DNA of 64,000 nucleotides from Squalus acanthias (Eukaryota): NCBI GenBank assembly GCA_030390025.1, contig CM059431.1:96474001-96538000 (forward strand). The letters are read 5' to 3'. A model generated the notes under the pieces. It ran no database searches. It had not been told where the DNA came from and was given only the letters and a program-made list of their open reading frames with translations. Shown piece after piece: positions 38,626 through 44,560 of this stretch; within the stretch, counting starts at the first letter, position 1, and the number at the start of each line of letters is the position of its first letter. Both the position numbers and the translations under genes were made by a program.

Positions 38626-41210
38626 CCCGGTCCCTGGGTATATATCTCTCCCCCCCTCCCACCCCCCCTGTTCCCCGGGTCTCTCTCCCCCCACGCCCCC
38701 CAGACCCCGGGTCCCTCTCTCCTCCCGGTCCCCTGGTCTCTCTCTCTCCCCGGTCCCCAGGTCTCGCTCCCCCCACTCACCGGGTCTCTCTCTCTCTCTC
38801 CCGGGGTCTCTCTCTCTCCCCCAGTCCCCGGGTCTCTCTCTCCCCCCGGGTGTCTCTCTCTCCCCCGATCCCCGGTTCTCTCTCTCCCCCCGGTCGCCGG
38901 GTCTCTCTCTCTCTCTCCCCAGTCCCCAGGTCTCTCTCTCTCCCCCCGGGTTTCTCTCTGTCTCCCCCGGGTCCCTGGGTCTCTCTCTCTCTCTCTCCCC
39001 CCGGGTCTCTCTCTCTGCCCCCCGGTCCCCAGGTCTCTCTCTCTCCCCCCAGTCCCTGGTCTCTCTCTCTCCCCCCGATCCCCGGGTCTCTCTCTCTCCC
39101 TCGGTCCCCGGGTCTCTCTCCCCCCACTCCCCGGGTCTCTCTCTCCCCCCGGGTCTCTCACTCTCCCCCAGTCCCCGGGTCTCTCTCTCCCCCCTGGTGT
39201 CTCTCTCTCCCCCGGGGGTTCTCTCTCTCCCACCGGTCACCGGGTCTCTCTCCCCCCCCCCCAGTACCCGGGTCTCTCTCTCTCTCTCCCAGGTCCCCAG
39301 GTCTCTCTCTCTCTCCCCCCCCCCGGTCCCCGGGTCTCTCTCTCTCCCCCCGGGTCTCTCTCTCTCTCCCTCCCCCTGGTCCCCGGGTCTCTCTCTCTCC
39401 CCCCCCGCCCCCCGGGTCCTCTCTCTCTCCCCCCGGGTCTCTCTCTCTCTCTCTCTCTCCCCCCGGGTCTCTCTCCCTCCCCCCCGGCCTCTCTCTCTTC
39501 CCCTGGTCCCCGGGTCTCTCTCTCTCCCCCCGGTCGCCGGGTCTCTCTCTCTCTCTCCCCCCGGGTCTCTCTCTCTCCACCCCCAGTCCCCAGGTCTCTC
39601 TCTCCCCACCGACCCCGGGTCTCTCTCTCTCTCCCCCGGTCCCCGGGTCTCTCTCTCTCCCCTGGTCCCCGAGACTCTCTCTCTCCCCCCCACCCACCCC
39701 CCCCCCACCCCCCCTTCCCCGGGTCTCTCTCTCTCTCCCCCGGTCCCCGGGTCTCTCTCTCTCTCTCCCCCGGCACTCTCTCTCTCCACCCCCGGTCCCC
39801 AGGTCTCTCTCTCCCCCCACGACCCCAGGTCTCTCTCTCGCTCTCCCCAGTCCCCGGGTCTCTCTCTCTCCCCCTGGGTTTTTCTCTCTCTCCTCCCAGT
39901 CCCCGGGTCTCTCTGTCTCCCCCCCGGTCCCCGGGTCTCTCTCTCTCCCCCCGGGTCTCTCTCTCTCTCCCCCCGGGTCTTTCTCCCTCCCCCCAGTTCC
40001 CGGGTCTCTCTCTCTCCCCCCGGTCCCCGGGTCTCTCTCTCTCTCTCCCCCCGGGTCTCTCTCTCTCTCCCCCCGGTCCCCGGGTCTCTCTCTCTCCCCC
40101 CGGTCCCCGGGTCTCTCTCTCTACCCCGGTCCCCGGGTCTCCCTCTCCCACCGGTCCCCGGGTCTCTCTCTCCCCCCGGTACCCGGGTCTCTCTCTCTCT
40201 CTCTCCCCGGTCCCCGGGTCTCTCTCTCTCCCCCCGGTCCCCGGGTCTCTCTCTCTCTCCCCCTGGTCCCCGGGTCTCTCTCTCTCTCTCTCCCCGGTCC
40301 CCGGGTCTCTCTCTCTCTCTCTCTCCCCCCGGGTCTCTCTCTCTCTCCCCCCGGTCCCCGGGTCTCTCTCTCTCCCCCCGGTCCCCGGGTCTCTCTCTCT
40401 CCCCCCGGGTCTCTCTCTCTCTCTCCCCGGTCCCCGGGTCTCTCTCCCCCCACTCCCCGGGTCTCTCTCTCTCCCCCTGGTCCCCGGGTCTCTCTCTCTC
40501 CCCCGGTTCCCTCTCTCTCTCCCCCCGGTGCCCGGGTCTCTCTCGCTCCCTCCCCCCGGGTCTCTCTCTCTTACCCCCAGTCTCGCTCTCTCCCCCCAGC
40601 CCCCGGGTGTCTCTCTCTTCCCCCGGGTCTCTCTCTCTGCCCCCGGTCCCTGGGTCTCTCTCTCCCCCTGGGTCTCTCTCCACCCCCCAGTCCCTGGGTC
40701 TCTTTCTCCCCACCTCCCCCCCGGTCCCCAGGTCTCTCCCTGTGTCCCCCCCCCCCCTCCCCCCCGGTCACCAGGTCTCTCTCTCCCCCTGGTCCCCGGG
40801 TCTCTCTCTCTCCCCCGGTTCCCTCTCTCTCTCCCCCCGGTGCCCGGGTCTCTCTCGCTCCCTCCCCCCGGGTCTCTCTCTCTTACCCTCAGTCTCGCTC
40901 TCTCCCCCCAGCCCCCGGGTGTCTCTCTCTTCCCCCGGGTCTCTCTCTCTGCCCCCGGTCCCTGGGTCTCTCTCTCCCCCTGGGTCTCTCTCCACCCCCC
41001 AGTCCCTGGGTCTCTTTCTCCCCACCTCCCCCCCCCCCCCCCCCCCCCCGGTCCCCAGGTCTCTCCCTGTGTCCCCCCCCCCCCCCGGTCACCGGGTCTC
41101 TCTCTCCCCCTGGTCCCCGGGTCTCTCTCTCCCCCCGGTCCCCGGGTCTCTCTCTCCCCCCGGTCCCCGGGTCTCTCTCTCCACCCGGTCCCTGGGTCTC
41201 TCACCCCCGG
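38626..41210. repeat. Pyrimidine-rich minisatellite (CCCCGGTCCCCGGGTCTCTCTCTCT)n
   Basis: Variable units with (CT)n and C-runs. Internal duplication of about 312 bp (40713 vs 41025). Position fits intron 1 of the APEX2-like exon. Confidence 0.95.
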
Positions 41211-41222
41211 CTGCTCCCTCAC

Positions 41223-42350: not shown

Positions 42351-44560
42351 GGAGGACCATCCCCGGACACAGCGCCACGCGCAGGCCGAAGGACCGACCC
42401 GGTCACAGCGCCTTCCCCAGGCCGGAGGACCGACACCGGACACAGCGCCACCCCCAGGCCGGAGGACCGACCCCGCACACAGCGCCACCCCCAGACCGGA
42501 GGCCCGACTGCGGGCACAGCGCCTCCGTCAGGCCGGAGGGCCGACTCCGGACAAAGCTTCACCCGCAGGCCGGAGGACCGAGTCCGGATACAGCGCATCC
42601 ATCAGGCCGGAGGACCGACCCAGGAAACAGCGCCACCCCCAGGCCGTTGGACCGACCCCGGTCCCGGACACAGTGCCGCCCCCGGGCCGGAGGACCGACT
42701 CCGGAAACAACGACGCCCCCAGGCCGGAGGACCGACACCGGGCACAGCGCCACCCGCAGACTGGAGGACCGACCCAGTCACAGCGCCACTCGCAGGCCGG
42801 TGGACCGACTCCGGAAACAGCGACGCCCCCAGGCCGGAGAACCGACTCCAGAAAAAGTGCCACCCCCAGGCAGGAGGACCGATCCCGGGCCCGAACACAG
42901 CGCCACCCCCAGCCGGAGGACCGACCACGCACGCAGCGCCACCCCCAGGCCGGAGGACCGACCCAGGAAACAGCGTCACCCCCCAGGCCGCAGGACTGAC
43001 CCCGGGCACAGCGCCACCCGCATACTGGAGGACCGACCCAGTCACAGCGCCACTCGCAGGCCGGTGGACCGACTCCGGAAACAGCGACGCCCCCAGGCCG
43101 GAGGAGCGACTCCAGAAACAGTGCCACCCCCAGGCCGGAGGACCGACTCCGGTCACAGCGCCACCCCCAGGCCGGAGGACCGATCCCGGGCCCGAACACA
43201 GCGCCACCCCCAGCCGGAGGACCGACCCCGCACGCAGCGCCACCCCCAGGCCGGAGGACCGACTCCGGTCACAGCGCCACCCCCAGGCCGGAGGACCGAT
43301 CCCGGGCCCGAACACAGCGCCACCCCCAGCCGGAGGACCGACCCCGCACGCAGCGCCACCCCCAGGACGGAGGACCGACTCCGGATACAGCGCCTCCCTC
43401 AGGCCGGAGGAACGACCCAGGAAACAGCGTCACCCCCCAGGCCGCAGGACTGACCCCGGGCACAGCGCCACCCGCAGACTGGAGGACCGACCCAGTCACA
43501 GCGCCACTCGCAGGCCGGTGGACCGACTCCGGAAACAGCGACGCCCCCAGGCCGGAGGACCGACTCCAGAAACAGTGCCACCCCCAGGCCGGAGGACCGA
43601 CCCCGCACACAGCGCCACCCCCAGACCGGAGGCCCGACTGCGGGCACAGCGCCTCCGTCAGGCCGGAGGACCGACTCCGGACAAAGCTTCACCCGCAGGC
43701 CGGAGGACCGAGTCCGGATACAGCGCATCCATCAGGCCGGAGGACCGACCCAGGAAACAGCGCCACCCCCAGGCCGTTGGACCGACCCCGGTCCCGGACA
43801 CAGTGCCGCCCCCGGGCCGGAGGACCGACTCCGGAAACAACGACGCCCCCAGGCCGGAGGACCGACACCGGGCACAGCGCCACCCGCAGACTGGAGGACC
43901 GACCCAGTCACAGCGCCACTCGCAGGCCGGTGGACCGACTCCGGAAACAGCGACGCCCCCAGGCCGGAGAACCGACTCCAGAAAAAGTGCCACCCCCAGG
44001 CAGGAGGACCGATCCCGGGCCCGAACACAGCGCCACCCCCAGCCGGAGGACCGACCACGCACGCAGCGCCACCCCCAGGCCGGAGGTCCGACTCCGGTCA
44101 CAGCGCCACCCCCAGGCCGGAGGACCGATCCCGGGCCCGAACACAGCGCCACCCCCAGCCGGAGGACCGACCCCGCACGCAGCGCCACCCCCAGGACGGA
44201 GGACCGACTCCGGATACAGCGCCTCCCTCAGGCCGGAGGAACGACCCAGGAAACAGCGTCACCCCCCAGGCCGCAGGACTGACCCCGGGCACAGCGCCAC
44301 CCGCATACTGGAGGACCGACTCCGGAAACAGCGACGCCCCTAGGCCGGAGGACCGACTCCAGAAACAGCGTCACCCCCAGGCCGCAGGACTGACCCCGGG
44401 CCCGGACACAGCGCCGCCCCCTGGCCGGTGGACCGACACCGGGCACAGCTCCAGCCCCAGGCCGAGGACCGACCACGGAAACAGCGCCACCCCCAGGCTG
44501 GAGGCCCGACTCCGGACACAGCGCCACCCCCAGGCCCGAGGAGTCACACGCCGGCCGGAC
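42351..44560. repeat. CpG-rich 37-bp tandem repeat (43-bp variants), CpG-island-like; also at about 41390-41468
   Basis: Unit approximately CAGCGCCACCCCCAGGCCGGAGGACCGACTCCGGACA. A 1130-bp higher-order duplication gives identical ORFs at 42559 and 43689. Confidence 0.93.

What the first reader, a model, noticed from the sequence alone, without database searches (positions are those of the whole stretch)
38626..44560. Candidate TERRA-like unit: CpG repeat, captured APEX2 exon 1 and splice donor facing the telomeric array
Seen: on the minus strand the order is a 2.2-kb CpG-rich 37-bp repeat, an ATG-initiated APEX2-like exon with a GTGAGG donor, a GA-rich minisatellite, then 19 kb of TTAGGG/CTAGGG. 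Known: TERRA is the G-rich strand, transcribed outward from CpG-rich subtelomeric repeat promoters (the human 61-29-37 repeats). Inference: the 5' end of a DNA-repair gene was captured at a chromosome end and may drive a chimeric APEX2-exon/UUAGGG RNA. The shared 37-bp unit length with human is an analogy, not evidence of homology.
Basis: partly seen in the sequence, partly recalled or inferred. Interest (0 to 1): 0.8.

Follow-up and report, generated by a model that had tools for sequence, protein, structure and literature searches.

The report
Stray APEX2 first exon beside telomere-like repeats
A shark-type genome carries a spare copy of the start of the DNA-repair gene APEX2, with its CpG-rich repeat, inside a block of DNA that also sits at chromosome ends and faces telomere-like repeats, but available RNA shows only a different, normally spliced APEX2 copy.

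Summary
The described layout is real. On the minus strand the order is: 37-bp CpG-island repeat (42351-44542), a LINE fragment insertion, APEX2 exon 1 (41358-41223) with a GT donor, a GA-rich minisatellite, then 19.4 kb of degenerate TTAGGG/CTAGGG.

The exon is APEX2: 70% identical to shark APEX2 N-termini. In two putative RNA runs a contig about 95% identical leaves the window exactly at this donor and continues with codons for LLDEPTAI, the start of APEX2 exon 2.

That expressed exon differs from the window copy by six bases in 125, a 6-nt indel and the 5'UTR. The window copy is therefore a partial, non-processed paralogue, and no RNA contig carries its letters.

The locus is not terminal. 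It lies 96.5 Mb into a 159.8-Mb scaffold, next to satellites, and the array abuts a 200-N gap.

The block (minisatellite, 37-bp repeat, spacer, telomere-like array) recurs at 8 loci. Three are at scaffold termini, all facing outward and without the exon. One lies upstream of a decayed APEX2 copy on C10.

Verdict: a gene-fragment-bearing telomere-associated duplicon. A TERRA-like promoter role is plausible by architecture but untested.

The parts
19050..19249 (.). 200-N scaffold gap at the distal edge of the telomere-like array
   Evidence: the only N run in the window
19254..38625 (-). 19.4-kb degenerate telomere-like array, G-rich (TTAGGG/CTAGGG) on the minus strand
   Evidence: period 6, 3195 copies, 78% matches; 44% of each kb on average, 41-51% in the 19 full bins, lies in perfect CCCTAA hexamers; 1153 CCCTAA and 612 CCCTAG of 3487 units; no purity gradient; longest perfect run 7 units
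38626..41202 (-). GA-rich (minus strand) / CT-CCCCGG (plus strand) minisatellite, period about 27, filling the start of APEX2 intron 1
   Evidence: (first 40 nt of the intron against the minisatellite unit: z 5.9, 0 of 2000 shuffles reach it); related minisatellite at C27 start and C17 end
41221..41222 (-). GT of the splice donor (GTGAGG)
   Evidence: (contigs of X10 and X12 stop matching at 41222 and continue with codons for R-D-L-L-D-E-P-T-A-I, the start of APEX2 exon 2)
41223..41358 (-). APEX2 exon 1 paralogue (ATG at 41358-41356; 45 codons plus 1 nt)
   Evidence: 70% identical to shark APEX2 N-terminus; expressed exon differs at 6 of 125 bases plus a 6-nt indel; one search run X4 (313-nt DNA contig 41158-41470, 3 differences, from an independent sample)
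41359..41469 (-). 5' flank / presumptive 5'UTR with about 3 degenerate 37-bp units (41370-41463)
   Evidence: 'up120' matches 37-bp arrays of 6 loci at 81-87%; 5' loose end of the RNA contig is related but not identical
41470..42340 (+). 5'-truncated LINE (non-LTR retrotransposon ORF2, 3' part) inserted into the 37-bp array, antisense to the exon
   Evidence: 47 homologues at E<=1e-5, many carrying RVT_1 with Exo_endo_phos domains; summed contig word depth of about 1.3e5 to 9e5 in the DNA runs, so high copy; 28-bp direct repeat 41436-41463 / 42351-42378, 27 of 28 identical
42351..44542 (-). 37-bp CpG-island tandem repeat, 58 copies, 454-bp higher-order period
   Evidence: (GC 73%, CpG o/e 0.83, 10.8 CpG per 100 bp)
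44543..44784 (-). 242-bp spacer shared by all copies of the block; partly derived from an interspersed repeat
   Evidence: 90-93% identical at C10, C27, C17, C3350 and C7:136.13 Mb
44785..45342 (-). short proximal telomere-like tract (CTAACC type)
   Evidence: (17% CCCTAA, 2% CCCTAG units)

Best explanation
The finding is a partial, non-processed duplicate of the 5' end of APEX2. It keeps the 37-bp CpG-island repeat flank, the 5'UTR, exon 1, the splice donor and the minisatellite-filled start of intron 1.

This fragment lies inside a telomere-associated duplicon whose order is minisatellite, 37-bp repeat, 242-bp spacer, telomere-like array. The duplicon has spread by segmental duplication to chromosome ends and to internal sites of this shark-type genome.

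The window copy sits in an interstitial, satellite-flanked, degenerate telomere-like region, or at a contig end that scaffolding placed there. It has no downstream APEX2 exons and is not the copy seen in RNA.

Shown: identity of the exon, its paralogy, the repeated block and its outward-facing copies at scaffold termini, and CpG-island composition.

Inferred:
- The fragment arose when an APEX2 copy lying next to such a block was cut in intron 1 and joined to, or healed with, telomeric repeats.
- Exon-less chromosome-end copies are related to it.
- The retained promoter-like flank could still fire towards the array.
For: Exon identity:
- 70% identity to Chiloscyllium APEX2 residues 5-52 (E 3.9e-8). 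The best PDB hit is the AP lyase 6wcd_A.
- The donor is used at the same place in the expressed gene.

Paralogy:
- Contigs of X10 and X12 match 41222-41346 with 6 other letters.
- By my codon reading, 41294 T>G gives D22->A and 41241 T>G gives K40->Q. Both restore the residues seen in other sharks' proteins.
- The RNA also lacks the 6-nt 'AE' insertion and has a different 5'UTR.

Non-processed origin: the 5' flank, donor and intron start are all retained.

No rest of gene:
- tblastn with four APEX2 proteins (P0002, P0004, P0005, P0008) finds only exon 1 in the window and its two 10-kb flanks.
- A whole-genome search with P0002 residues 53-223 gives 1 match among 6 candidates, a TGA-bearing fragment on C255.

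Only one other copy of the exon exists, at C10:114062146-114062358. It is 83% identical, truncated and frame-broken. It lies about 6 kb, across a 200-N gap, upstream of a frameshifted exon 6 with the Zn-ribbon GRF.

Duplicon:
- The same order of parts is found at C27 start, C4 start, C17 end, C3350, C10 and C7:136.13 Mb. C16:45.73 Mb is known only from its 37-bp/spacer junction.
- There are 7 full-length 37-bp/spacer junctions, plus C10.

Reality of the locus: DNA run X4, from an independent sample, has a 313-nt contig across minisatellite edge, exon and flank.
Against: - The exon ORF and donor are intact, and the exon is only about 5% diverged from the expressed one. A functional or transcribed role cannot be dismissed.
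- The expressed exon 1 and exons 2-5 are absent from the assembly. The true APEX2 locus could therefore not be compared.
- Only 40 of 838 candidates were scored and 149 of 2744, so copy counts are lower bounds.
- The array abuts a scaffold gap, so the interstitial placement depends on scaffolding I could not check.
- X10 and X12 are labelled RNA only by a guess. The exon 1-exon 2 junction is my reason to treat them as cDNA.
Confidence: 0.75

Rival explanations
1. TERRA-like unit: the 37-bp CpG island and APEX2 5' flank act as a promoter. Transcripts would start near 41.36-41.5 kb or in the array, include exon 1, and run or splice into the minisatellite and the UUAGGG/CUAGGG array.
For: - The orientation is right: CpG island, then exon and donor, then the G-rich strand, all on the minus strand.
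- CpG o/e is 0.83 at 73% GC, which argues against long-term germline methylation decay.
- A homologous flank lies in front of an APEX2 exon 1 that is expressed.
- Family members face outward at 3 scaffold termini.
- Human precedent: CpG-island tandem-repeat TERRA promoters, including 106 intrachromosomal copies, 47 of them flanking genes or pseudogenes, and transcribed ITSs (10.1101/2025.05.15.654290, abstract and section 7; PMC6600276 passages).
Against: - Over the exon, all depth in X10 (48.9 of 48.9) and X12 (35.5 of 35.5) shows the non-window letters at 41294 and 41296.
- An 870-bp LINE fragment now separates the main array from the exon.
- The array is an interstitial, degenerate repeat in this assembly.
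- No transcription start data exist.
Confidence: 0.12
2. The contig that starts at 19250 is a true chromosome end (telomere, minisatellite, exon, 37-bp repeat) that Hi-C scaffolding joined into the middle of C7, or it is one side of an ancestral telomere-telomere or centric fusion. This rival concerns position only and is compatible with the best explanation.
For: - The array begins exactly at a 200-N gap.
- C-rich strand on the plus strand followed by subtelomere-type block is the orientation of a left chromosome end.
- The same block ends three scaffolds.
- At least 18.7 kb of 39-bp satellite plus the 61-bp satellite lie on the other side of the gap.
Against: - Array purity is flat along 19 kb: 41-51% of each of the 19 full 1-kb bins lies in perfect hexamers, and the longest perfect run is 7 units.
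- Perfect (TTAGGG)12 runs do exist elsewhere in the assembly (9587 forward and 990 reverse places).
- No head-to-head TTAGGG/CCCTAA switch is seen.
Confidence: 0.2
3. It is the genuine first exon of the functional APEX2, whose other exons are unassembled or mis-placed. On this reading the 5% difference from the RNA contigs is allelic or between populations.
For: - The ATG, ORF and donor are intact.
- No closer exon 1 copy exists in the assembly.
- Exons 2-5 are missing from the assembly anyway.
Against: - There are 6 differences in 125 nt, a 6-nt indel and a different 5'UTR against RNA of the same labelled organism. An independent DNA sample differs at only 3 of 313 nt.
- The window copy has non-conservative changes (A->D, Q->K) at positions kept in other sharks.
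- More than 41 kb downstream is telomere-like array and satellites with no exon.
Confidence: 0.05
4. The ORF is the N-terminus of a LINE apurinic-type endonuclease rather than APEX2.
For: - LINE endonucleases share the fold, and the genome is full of them (2744 candidates for the xth model).
- A LINE fragment lies 110 bp away.
Against: - 70% identity to shark APEX2 against 32-45% for the other hits to P0002 residues 9-90.
- The best solved-structure hit is the AP lyase 6wcd_A, followed by exonuclease III and related exodeoxyribonucleases; no retrotransposon endonuclease is among the 6.
- The expressed paralogue splices to APEX2 exon 2.
- The neighbouring LINE fragment is on the other strand and is a 3' part.
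Confidence: 0.01

Closest known systems
Human TERRA CpG-island promoters (61-29-37 repeats) and their intrachromosomal copies
   Same: - CpG-island tandem repeats lie between chromosome body and telomeric repeats, oriented so that transcription would copy the C-rich strand.
- The family is spread by segmental duplication to subtelomeres and to interstitial telomeric sequences.
- Some copies flank genes or pseudogenes (PMC6600276 passages; 10.1101/2025.05.15.654290 abstract and section 7).
   Different: - No transcription, start site or factor binding is shown here.
- No sequence homology was tested. The equal 37-bp period is a coincidence of length as far as I can tell.
- The repeat is 2.6 kb from the array, behind a minisatellite.
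- This family is physically linked to the first exon of a named housekeeping gene.
Subtelomeric duplicons carrying partial gene copies (for example the human DDX11L family and subtelomeric duplicon blocks)
   Same: Gene fragments and pseudogenes are copied among chromosome ends and to internal sites next to degenerate telomere repeats (PMC2705379 and PMC2323237: search listing and abstract openings only).
   Different: - A different gene and lineage.
- Only the promoter-proximal exon is retained here.
- The chromosome-end copies examined (C27, C17, C4) lack the exon.
Heterochromatic or fusion-type interstitial telomeric sequences
   Same: A kilobase-scale, degenerate TTAGGG-like array inside a chromosome-scale scaffold, beside satellite DNA and a fossil subtelomere-type block. 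Reviews: PMC6410037 and PMC9693754, search listing only.
   Different: - No head-to-head array is seen.
- The array edge is a scaffold gap, so the true position is unverified.
Vertebrate APEX2 (APE2) gene
   Same: - Exon 1 encodes the N-terminal exonuclease-III-type segment, with 70% identity to shark APEX2.
- The donor position is shared with the expressed gene.
   Different: - Only exon 1 is present.
- It carries two non-conservative substitutions and a 2-codon insertion relative to the expressed exon.
- It is followed by a minisatellite and telomere-like repeats instead of exon 2.

Membership tests
APEX2 (exon 1) | N-terminal exonuclease-III/APE-type sequence closest to APEX2 orthologues | tested here: met
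   70% identity to P0002 residues 5-52, E 3.9e-8. 62% to P0004 and 58% to P0005. Best PDB hit is 6wcd_A, E 0.002. Pfam gave 0 families for the 47-aa piece, which is too short.
APEX2 (exon 1) | Exon ends at the donor used by the expressed gene | tested here: met
   Contigs of X10 and X12 leave the window at 41222, the G of GTGAGG, and continue with APEX2 exon 2 codons.
APEX2 (functional gene) | Remaining catalytic exons and the C-terminal Zn-ribbon GRF lie downstream on the same strand | tested here: not met
   No APEX2 match other than exon 1 in the window or its 10-kb flanks. xth and PF06839 matches lie on C10 and C3511, not here.
APEX2 (functional gene) | Identity with the transcribed sequence | tested here: not met
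   6 of 125 bases differ, with a 6-nt indel and a different 5'UTR. No RNA depth carries the window letters at 41294 or 41296.
Processed pseudogene | Intron-less cDNA copy without promoter flank | tested here: not met
   The donor, intron start and homologous 5' flank are retained. The same flanks are present at the C10 copy.
TERRA promoter of the human CpG-island type | CpG island made of tandem repeats | tested here: met
   2192 bp, GC 73%, CpG o/e 0.83. Other loci range from 0.66 to 0.79.
TERRA promoter of the human CpG-island type | Subtelomeric position next to the terminal array, facing it | tested here: inconclusive
   The facing orientation is met. This copy is 63 Mb from the nearer scaffold end. 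Family members are at 3 of 8 loci within 5 kb of scaffold termini, but no terminal array is assembled there.
TERRA promoter of the human CpG-island type | Transcripts that start in the repeat and contain UUAGGG | not testable with these tools
   Only contigs of four runs could be laid, and on 40900-41800 only. No strand, start-site or long-read RNA data were available.
TERRA promoter of the human CpG-island type | Sequence homology to the 61-, 29- and 37-bp units, and CTCF/NRF1 sites | not tested
   No human reference sequence or motif matrix was available from a tool. I did not use recalled sequences.
Functional terminal telomere | Terminal position and near-perfect TTAGGG | tested here: not met
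   The array is internal to the scaffold and abuts an N gap. 33% of units are perfect, 18% are CTAGGG, the longest perfect run is 7 units and there is no gradient.
Interstitial telomeric sequence of heterochromatic or fusion type | Long degenerate array inside a chromosome next to satellite DNA | tested here: met
   The caveat is that the placement rests on scaffolding across the gap.

The most novel reading that the evidence does not exclude
The chromosome-end CpG-island repeat family of this shark is the APEX2 promoter flank. On this reading, an APEX2 copy lying as the last gene before a telomere was broken in intron 1 and healed by telomere addition. That would leave promoter, exon 1, donor, minisatellite and TTAGGG in one line, the arrangement preserved in this window.

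Derivatives that lost the exon then spread to other chromosome ends. There the housekeeping-type promoter would drive UUAGGG-containing RNA. This would be an independently evolved TERRA promoter with a traceable genic origin.
Probability: 0.12. Interest if true: 0.7.

Novelty: new member of a known kind. Interest (0 to 1): 0.4.

Why it matters
TERRA promoters are well described only in a few mammals and yeasts. How CpG-island repeats come to sit at chromosome ends is an open question.

This locus offers a non-mammalian vertebrate case with three useful properties:
- A CpG-island tandem repeat faces telomeric repeats at several chromosome ends.
- The repeat is physically tied to the first exon of a housekeeping DNA-repair gene.
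- Paralogue-specific bases allow transcripts to be assigned to individual copies.

If the repeat proves to be a promoter, it would show convergent evolution of TERRA-type promoters and suggest an origin by gene truncation.

If it does not, the locus is an ordinary gene-fragment-bearing subtelomeric or ITS duplicon. It would still warn that APEX2 is fragmented in this assembly and that internal telomere-like arrays abut scaffold gaps.

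Tried and rejected
- **Pfam on the 47-aa exon and three LINE-frame pieces:** nothing useful. 0 families for three of the four proteins, and one sub-threshold DUF7222 hit.
- **Word-indexed homologue search with the 47-aa exon:** 19 candidates, none at E<=0.01.
- **C15 match to the exon (E 1.31):** a tandem-repeat ORF, rejected.
- **RNA holders:** no RNA holder was listed for 41190-41490.
- **RNA cover upstream and over the minisatellite:** X10 and X12 have no cover over 41365-41457. 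X10 has low depth on 41117-41209. Minisatellite contigs cannot be assigned to a locus, so I draw nothing from this.
- **Origin of the 37-bp unit from the exon start or proximal 5'UTR:** local alignment is no better than mononucleotide shuffles (z 0.6, -0.3 and 0.5). Not supported.
- **Origin of the minisatellite from the exon's 3' end:** only an 8-nt exact match, z 3.0, with 26 of 2000 shuffles reaching it. Too weak.
- **Derivation of the exon-less junction (C27, C17) from the exon-bearing one by deletion:** by eye, about 65-70% of the roughly 50 low-complexity columns after the donor agree (the tool gives 57% mean column identity over the whole four-sequence alignment). Suggestive only.
- **Left GA-rich minisatellite (17790-19049) against the right minisatellite and against the tract upstream of APEX2 exon 6:** 65-70% identity, low complexity. 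No homology claimed.
- **Rfam on 38000-46000:** 0 matches.
- **Earlier scan notes:** none for this genome, sequence or these words.
- **Literature:** searches for shark or fish TERRA promoters and for APEX2 in subtelomeric duplications returned nothing relevant.
- **Supplements:** the supplementary tables of the bioRxiv preprint, which bear on the human comparison, could not be seen.
- **Further genome stretches:** C16:45.73 Mb, the far side of C7:136.13 Mb and C255 were therefore not inspected.

Full report
**Position and setting**

The window is G000:C7:96474001-96538000 (plus strand) of a 3.71-Gb assembly with 3882 contigs or scaffolds. C7 is 159,781,428 bases long, so the locus is 63 Mb from the nearer scaffold end.

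Protein homologues found later are named by their sources as shark APEX2 proteins, at 60-68% identity. I therefore call the organism shark-type and go no further.

**Anatomy of the window**

- 39-bp satellite: 1-8755. It continues for at least 10 kb to the left, with 239 approximate units in the flank where 256 would fit.
- 61-bp satellite: 9088-17783.
- GA-rich minisatellite: 17790-19049.
- 200-N gap: 19050-19249, the only N run in the window.
- CCCTAA-type array: 19254-38625.
- CT/CCCCGG minisatellite: 38626-41202.
- Exon-like ORF on the minus strand.
- 37-bp repeat: 42351-44542.
- 242-bp spacer: 44543-44784.
- Short CTAACC tract: 44785-45342.
- Mixed interspersed repeats up to 64000.

The 37-bp repeat has 58 copies, GC 73% and CpG o/e 0.83. 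Window 45343-64000 has o/e 0.33.

The 19.4-kb array is degenerate. Of 3487 parsed units, 1153 are CCCTAA and 612 are CCCTAG. The fraction in perfect hexamers stays at 0.41-0.51 in every full 1-kb bin, with no gradient towards the gap. The longest perfect run is 7 units. Perfect (TTAGGG)12 runs do exist elsewhere in the assembly.

A 5'-truncated LINE fragment lies at about 41470-42340 on the plus strand. Its 127-aa frame has 47 homologues at E<=1e-5, many of them 1000-aa proteins with RVT_1 and Exo_endo_phos domains. Its summed contig word depth in DNA runs is about 1.3e5 to 9e5, so it is high copy.

The fragment is flanked by a 28-bp direct repeat, 27 of 28 identical. It splits the main array from about three degenerate units (41370-41463) that remain next to the ATG.

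**The exon is APEX2 exon 1**

The translation from 41358 matches several references:
- Chiloscyllium APEX2 (P0002) at 70% over residues 5-52, E 3.9e-8 in the whole-genome search.
- 69.6% over 46 aa in a local tblastn, and two further shark APEX2 proteins at 58-62%.
- In the PDB, the best of 6 listed sequences is the AP lyase 6wcd_A (E 0.002), followed by exonuclease III.

Pfam and the word-indexed search were blind to so short a piece.

**RNA evidence**

I laid four runs on 40900-41800. Two are putative RNA runs of the same labelled organism from another study (X10, X12). Each holds one contig, of 399 and 312 nt, matching 41222-41346 with 6 other letters.

On the downstream side, each contig leaves the window exactly at the G of GTGAGG. 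It continues with letters that read, in frame, R-D-L-L-D-E-P-T-A-I. This corresponds to the start of exon 2 in shark APEX2 proteins. The junction shows that these contigs are cDNA and that the donor is orthologous to the one the expressed gene uses.

It also fixes the exon at 41223-41358. The terminal 'RE' of the ORF is intron read-through.

On the upstream side, the contigs diverge at 41346. They show ATG-GCT followed by a related but different 5'UTR. The window copy therefore has a 6-nt (Ala-Glu) insertion relative to the expressed exon.

By my codon reading:
- 41294 T>G turns the window's Asp22 into Ala.
- 41241 T>G turns Lys40 into Gln.
- 41296 G>C is synonymous.

Ala and Gln are the residues in the other sharks' proteins. 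The window copy thus carries derived, non-conservative changes.

Over the exon, all RNA depth (48.9 of 48.9 in X10, 35.5 of 35.5 in X12) has the non-window letters at 41294 and 41296.

An independent DNA sample (X4) has a 313-nt contig covering 41158-41470 with 3 differences. The locus therefore exists in a second individual and is not an assembly artefact at this scale.

I conclude that the expressed exon 1 belongs to a third copy that is not in the assembly. The DNA search found no copy closer than 83%.

**APEX2 elsewhere in the genome**

The only other exon 1 copy is at C10:114062146-114062358. It is 83% identical over 218 nt and 90.5% over the 105-nt core. It lacks the last roughly 30 nt and the donor, and its frame is broken.

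That copy has the same neighbours in the same order: minisatellite, exon, 37-bp array (1.2 kb), spacer, a LINE 3' piece, then 7 kb of CCCTAA-type array. About 6 kb away, across a 200-N gap and on the same strand, lies an APEX2 last exon with the xth C-terminus and the GRF zinc ribbon. This exon has a frameshift and other defects.

An intact last exon (341-aa frame) sits at the very end of unplaced scaffold C3511. It is 91.9% identical to the C10 copy over 1228 nt.

P0002 residues 53-223 (exons 2-5) find only one TGA-bearing fragment on C255, from 6 candidates. APEX2 is therefore fragmented in this assembly. It is present as at least a decayed copy (C10), a lone exon 1 (this window), and an expressed copy whose 5' part is unassembled.

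**The block is a dispersed, chromosome-end-associated duplicon**

Blast of the parts against fetched loci and whole-genome searches with two junctions give 8 loci with the 37-bp/spacer junction:
- C7:96.52 Mb (this window)
- C7:136.13 Mb
- C10:114.06 Mb
- C16:45.73 Mb
- C3350
- C4:55
- C27:3585
- C17:79,554,842

Only 40 of 838 candidates were scored, so this is a floor. Large pure 37-bp arrays also fill unplaced scaffolds C459 and C954.

Three of the 8 loci are within 5 kb of scaffold termini, and all three have the same polarity:
- C27 starts with minisatellite (2-2260), then 37-bp array, spacer, LINE piece and at least 5.7 kb of CCCTAA-type array.
- C4 starts inside the 37-bp array.
- C17 ends with the mirror image, its last bases being minisatellite.

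The window shows what lies beyond the minisatellite, namely a telomere-like array in telomere orientation.

In the C27 and C17 copies the minisatellite abuts the 37-bp array directly, with no exon.

The distal array of the window differs in make-up from the proximal arrays of the other loci. CCCTAG makes up 18% of its units, against 0-3% in the others, which instead carry a CCCTAAATA variant.

The C7:136.13 Mb locus is an inverted duplicate of window 42720-48613. Identity is 80% in the array and 92-97.6% in the flank. It breaks at a 200-N gap exactly where an exon 1 would lie.

**Interpretation**

The finding is a non-processed partial duplicate of the APEX2 5' end, embedded in a telomere-associated duplicon. 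Promoter flank, exon 1, donor and intron start are colinear with the G-rich strand of a long telomere-like array.

The simplest history, which I infer rather than show, is that an APEX2 copy next to such a block was truncated in intron 1 and joined to telomeric repeats. The alternative is that the block with the exon was copied as a segment.

I could not polarise the relation between exon-bearing and exon-less blocks. The junction alignment is only suggestive: by eye about 65-70% of some 50 low-complexity columns agree, and mean column identity over the whole alignment is 57%. Shuffle tests give no support for deriving the 37-bp unit from the exon or the proximal 5'UTR.

Whether the locus is truly interstitial is also open. 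It may be a pericentromeric or fusion-type ITS beside satellites, or a chromosome end placed there by scaffolding, because the array ends at a gap.

**The TERRA idea**

The architecture parallels human TERRA promoters. These are CpG-island tandem repeats facing the telomere (PMC6600276, passages). They include 106 intrachromosomal copies, 67 of them next to ITSs and 47 flanking genes or pseudogenes. They form a segmental-duplication family with transcribed ITSs (10.1101/2025.05.15.654290, abstract and section 7; its supplementary tables were not visible to me).

The high CpG o/e, and the fact that a homologous flank precedes an expressed APEX2 exon 1, make promoter competence plausible.

Against this, nothing shows transcription of this copy, the main array is now 1 kb from the exon because of the LINE insertion, and the RNA contigs available carry only the other paralogue. 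I put the TERRA-like reading for this locus at about 0.12. I rate the finding as a new member of a known kind: a subtelomeric or ITS duplicon with a gene fragment and a CpG-island repeat.

**Not in print, as far as searched**

Searches returned no paper on TERRA promoters in sharks or fishes, or on APEX2 in subtelomeric duplications. The library lacks most subscription journals.

Noticed in passing
window 1-8755 and 9088-17783; L041 (C7:96464001-96474000): Two AT-rich satellites, of 39 bp (224 copies, strong C over G skew) and 61 bp (92 copies), lie left of the gap. The 39-bp one continues at least 10 kb beyond the window. They could be pericentromeric.
   Followed up: partly
window 17790-19049: A GA-rich minisatellite (units of about 19 and 26 bp, 454-bp higher order) ends at the N gap. 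It has only 65-70% low-complexity similarity to the reverse of the 38.6-41.2 kb minisatellite and to the GA-rich tract upstream of the APEX2 last exon on C10.
   Followed up: partly
window 42720-48613 versus L043 (C7:136128001-136135048): An inverted intrachromosomal duplicate of the 37-bp array, spacer, short telomere-like tract and 3.3 kb of flank (92-97.6% identical in the flank) lies 39.6 Mb away. It is cut by a 200-N gap where exon 1 would be, so a hidden exon 1 copy is possible.
   Followed up: partly
L036/L040 (C10:114055006-114056014; C3511:252742-253764); L059 (C255:100214-100303): APEX2 is fragmented in the assembly. The last exon is intact at the end of unplaced scaffold C3511 and frameshifted on C10. 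A TGA-bearing fragment lies on C255, and exons 2-5 were not found.
   Followed up: yes
C1175:571633, C3219:63325, C1131:103858, C2561:2111341, C3288:194190 and 286740: Six matches at five scaffolds (two on C3288), none on a numbered chromosome-scale scaffold, exceed the curated cut-off of the exonuclease III (xth) model. Some have a second exon about 5 kb upstream. They look like a multi-copy APEX1-like gene or a collapsed or duplicated region.
   Followed up: no
C27:16.16-16.46 Mb and C12:64.90-65.13 Mb: Dozens of near-identical open frames of about 1146 aa, with an APE-type endonuclease domain, are spaced 6-14 kb apart in tandem. This looks like a LINE family sitting in a tandemly repeated host unit.
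   Followed up: no
window 61149-62209: A very homogeneous 23-bp tandem repeat (46 copies, 97% matches) in a GC-rich patch.
   Followed up: no
L039, L060, L037, L044, L045 proximal arrays versus window 19254-38625: The telomere-like arrays on the two sides of the block are of different types. The distal one is rich in CTAGGG (18% of units). The proximal ones have almost none and instead carry a CCCTAAATA variant.
   Followed up: partly
C3:86522017-86522669 and C2:17784977-17785120: Perfect TTAGGG runs of hundreds of bases lie deep inside chromosome-scale scaffolds. Either pure ITSs or telomere-bearing contig ends joined by scaffolding are common in this assembly.
   Followed up: no
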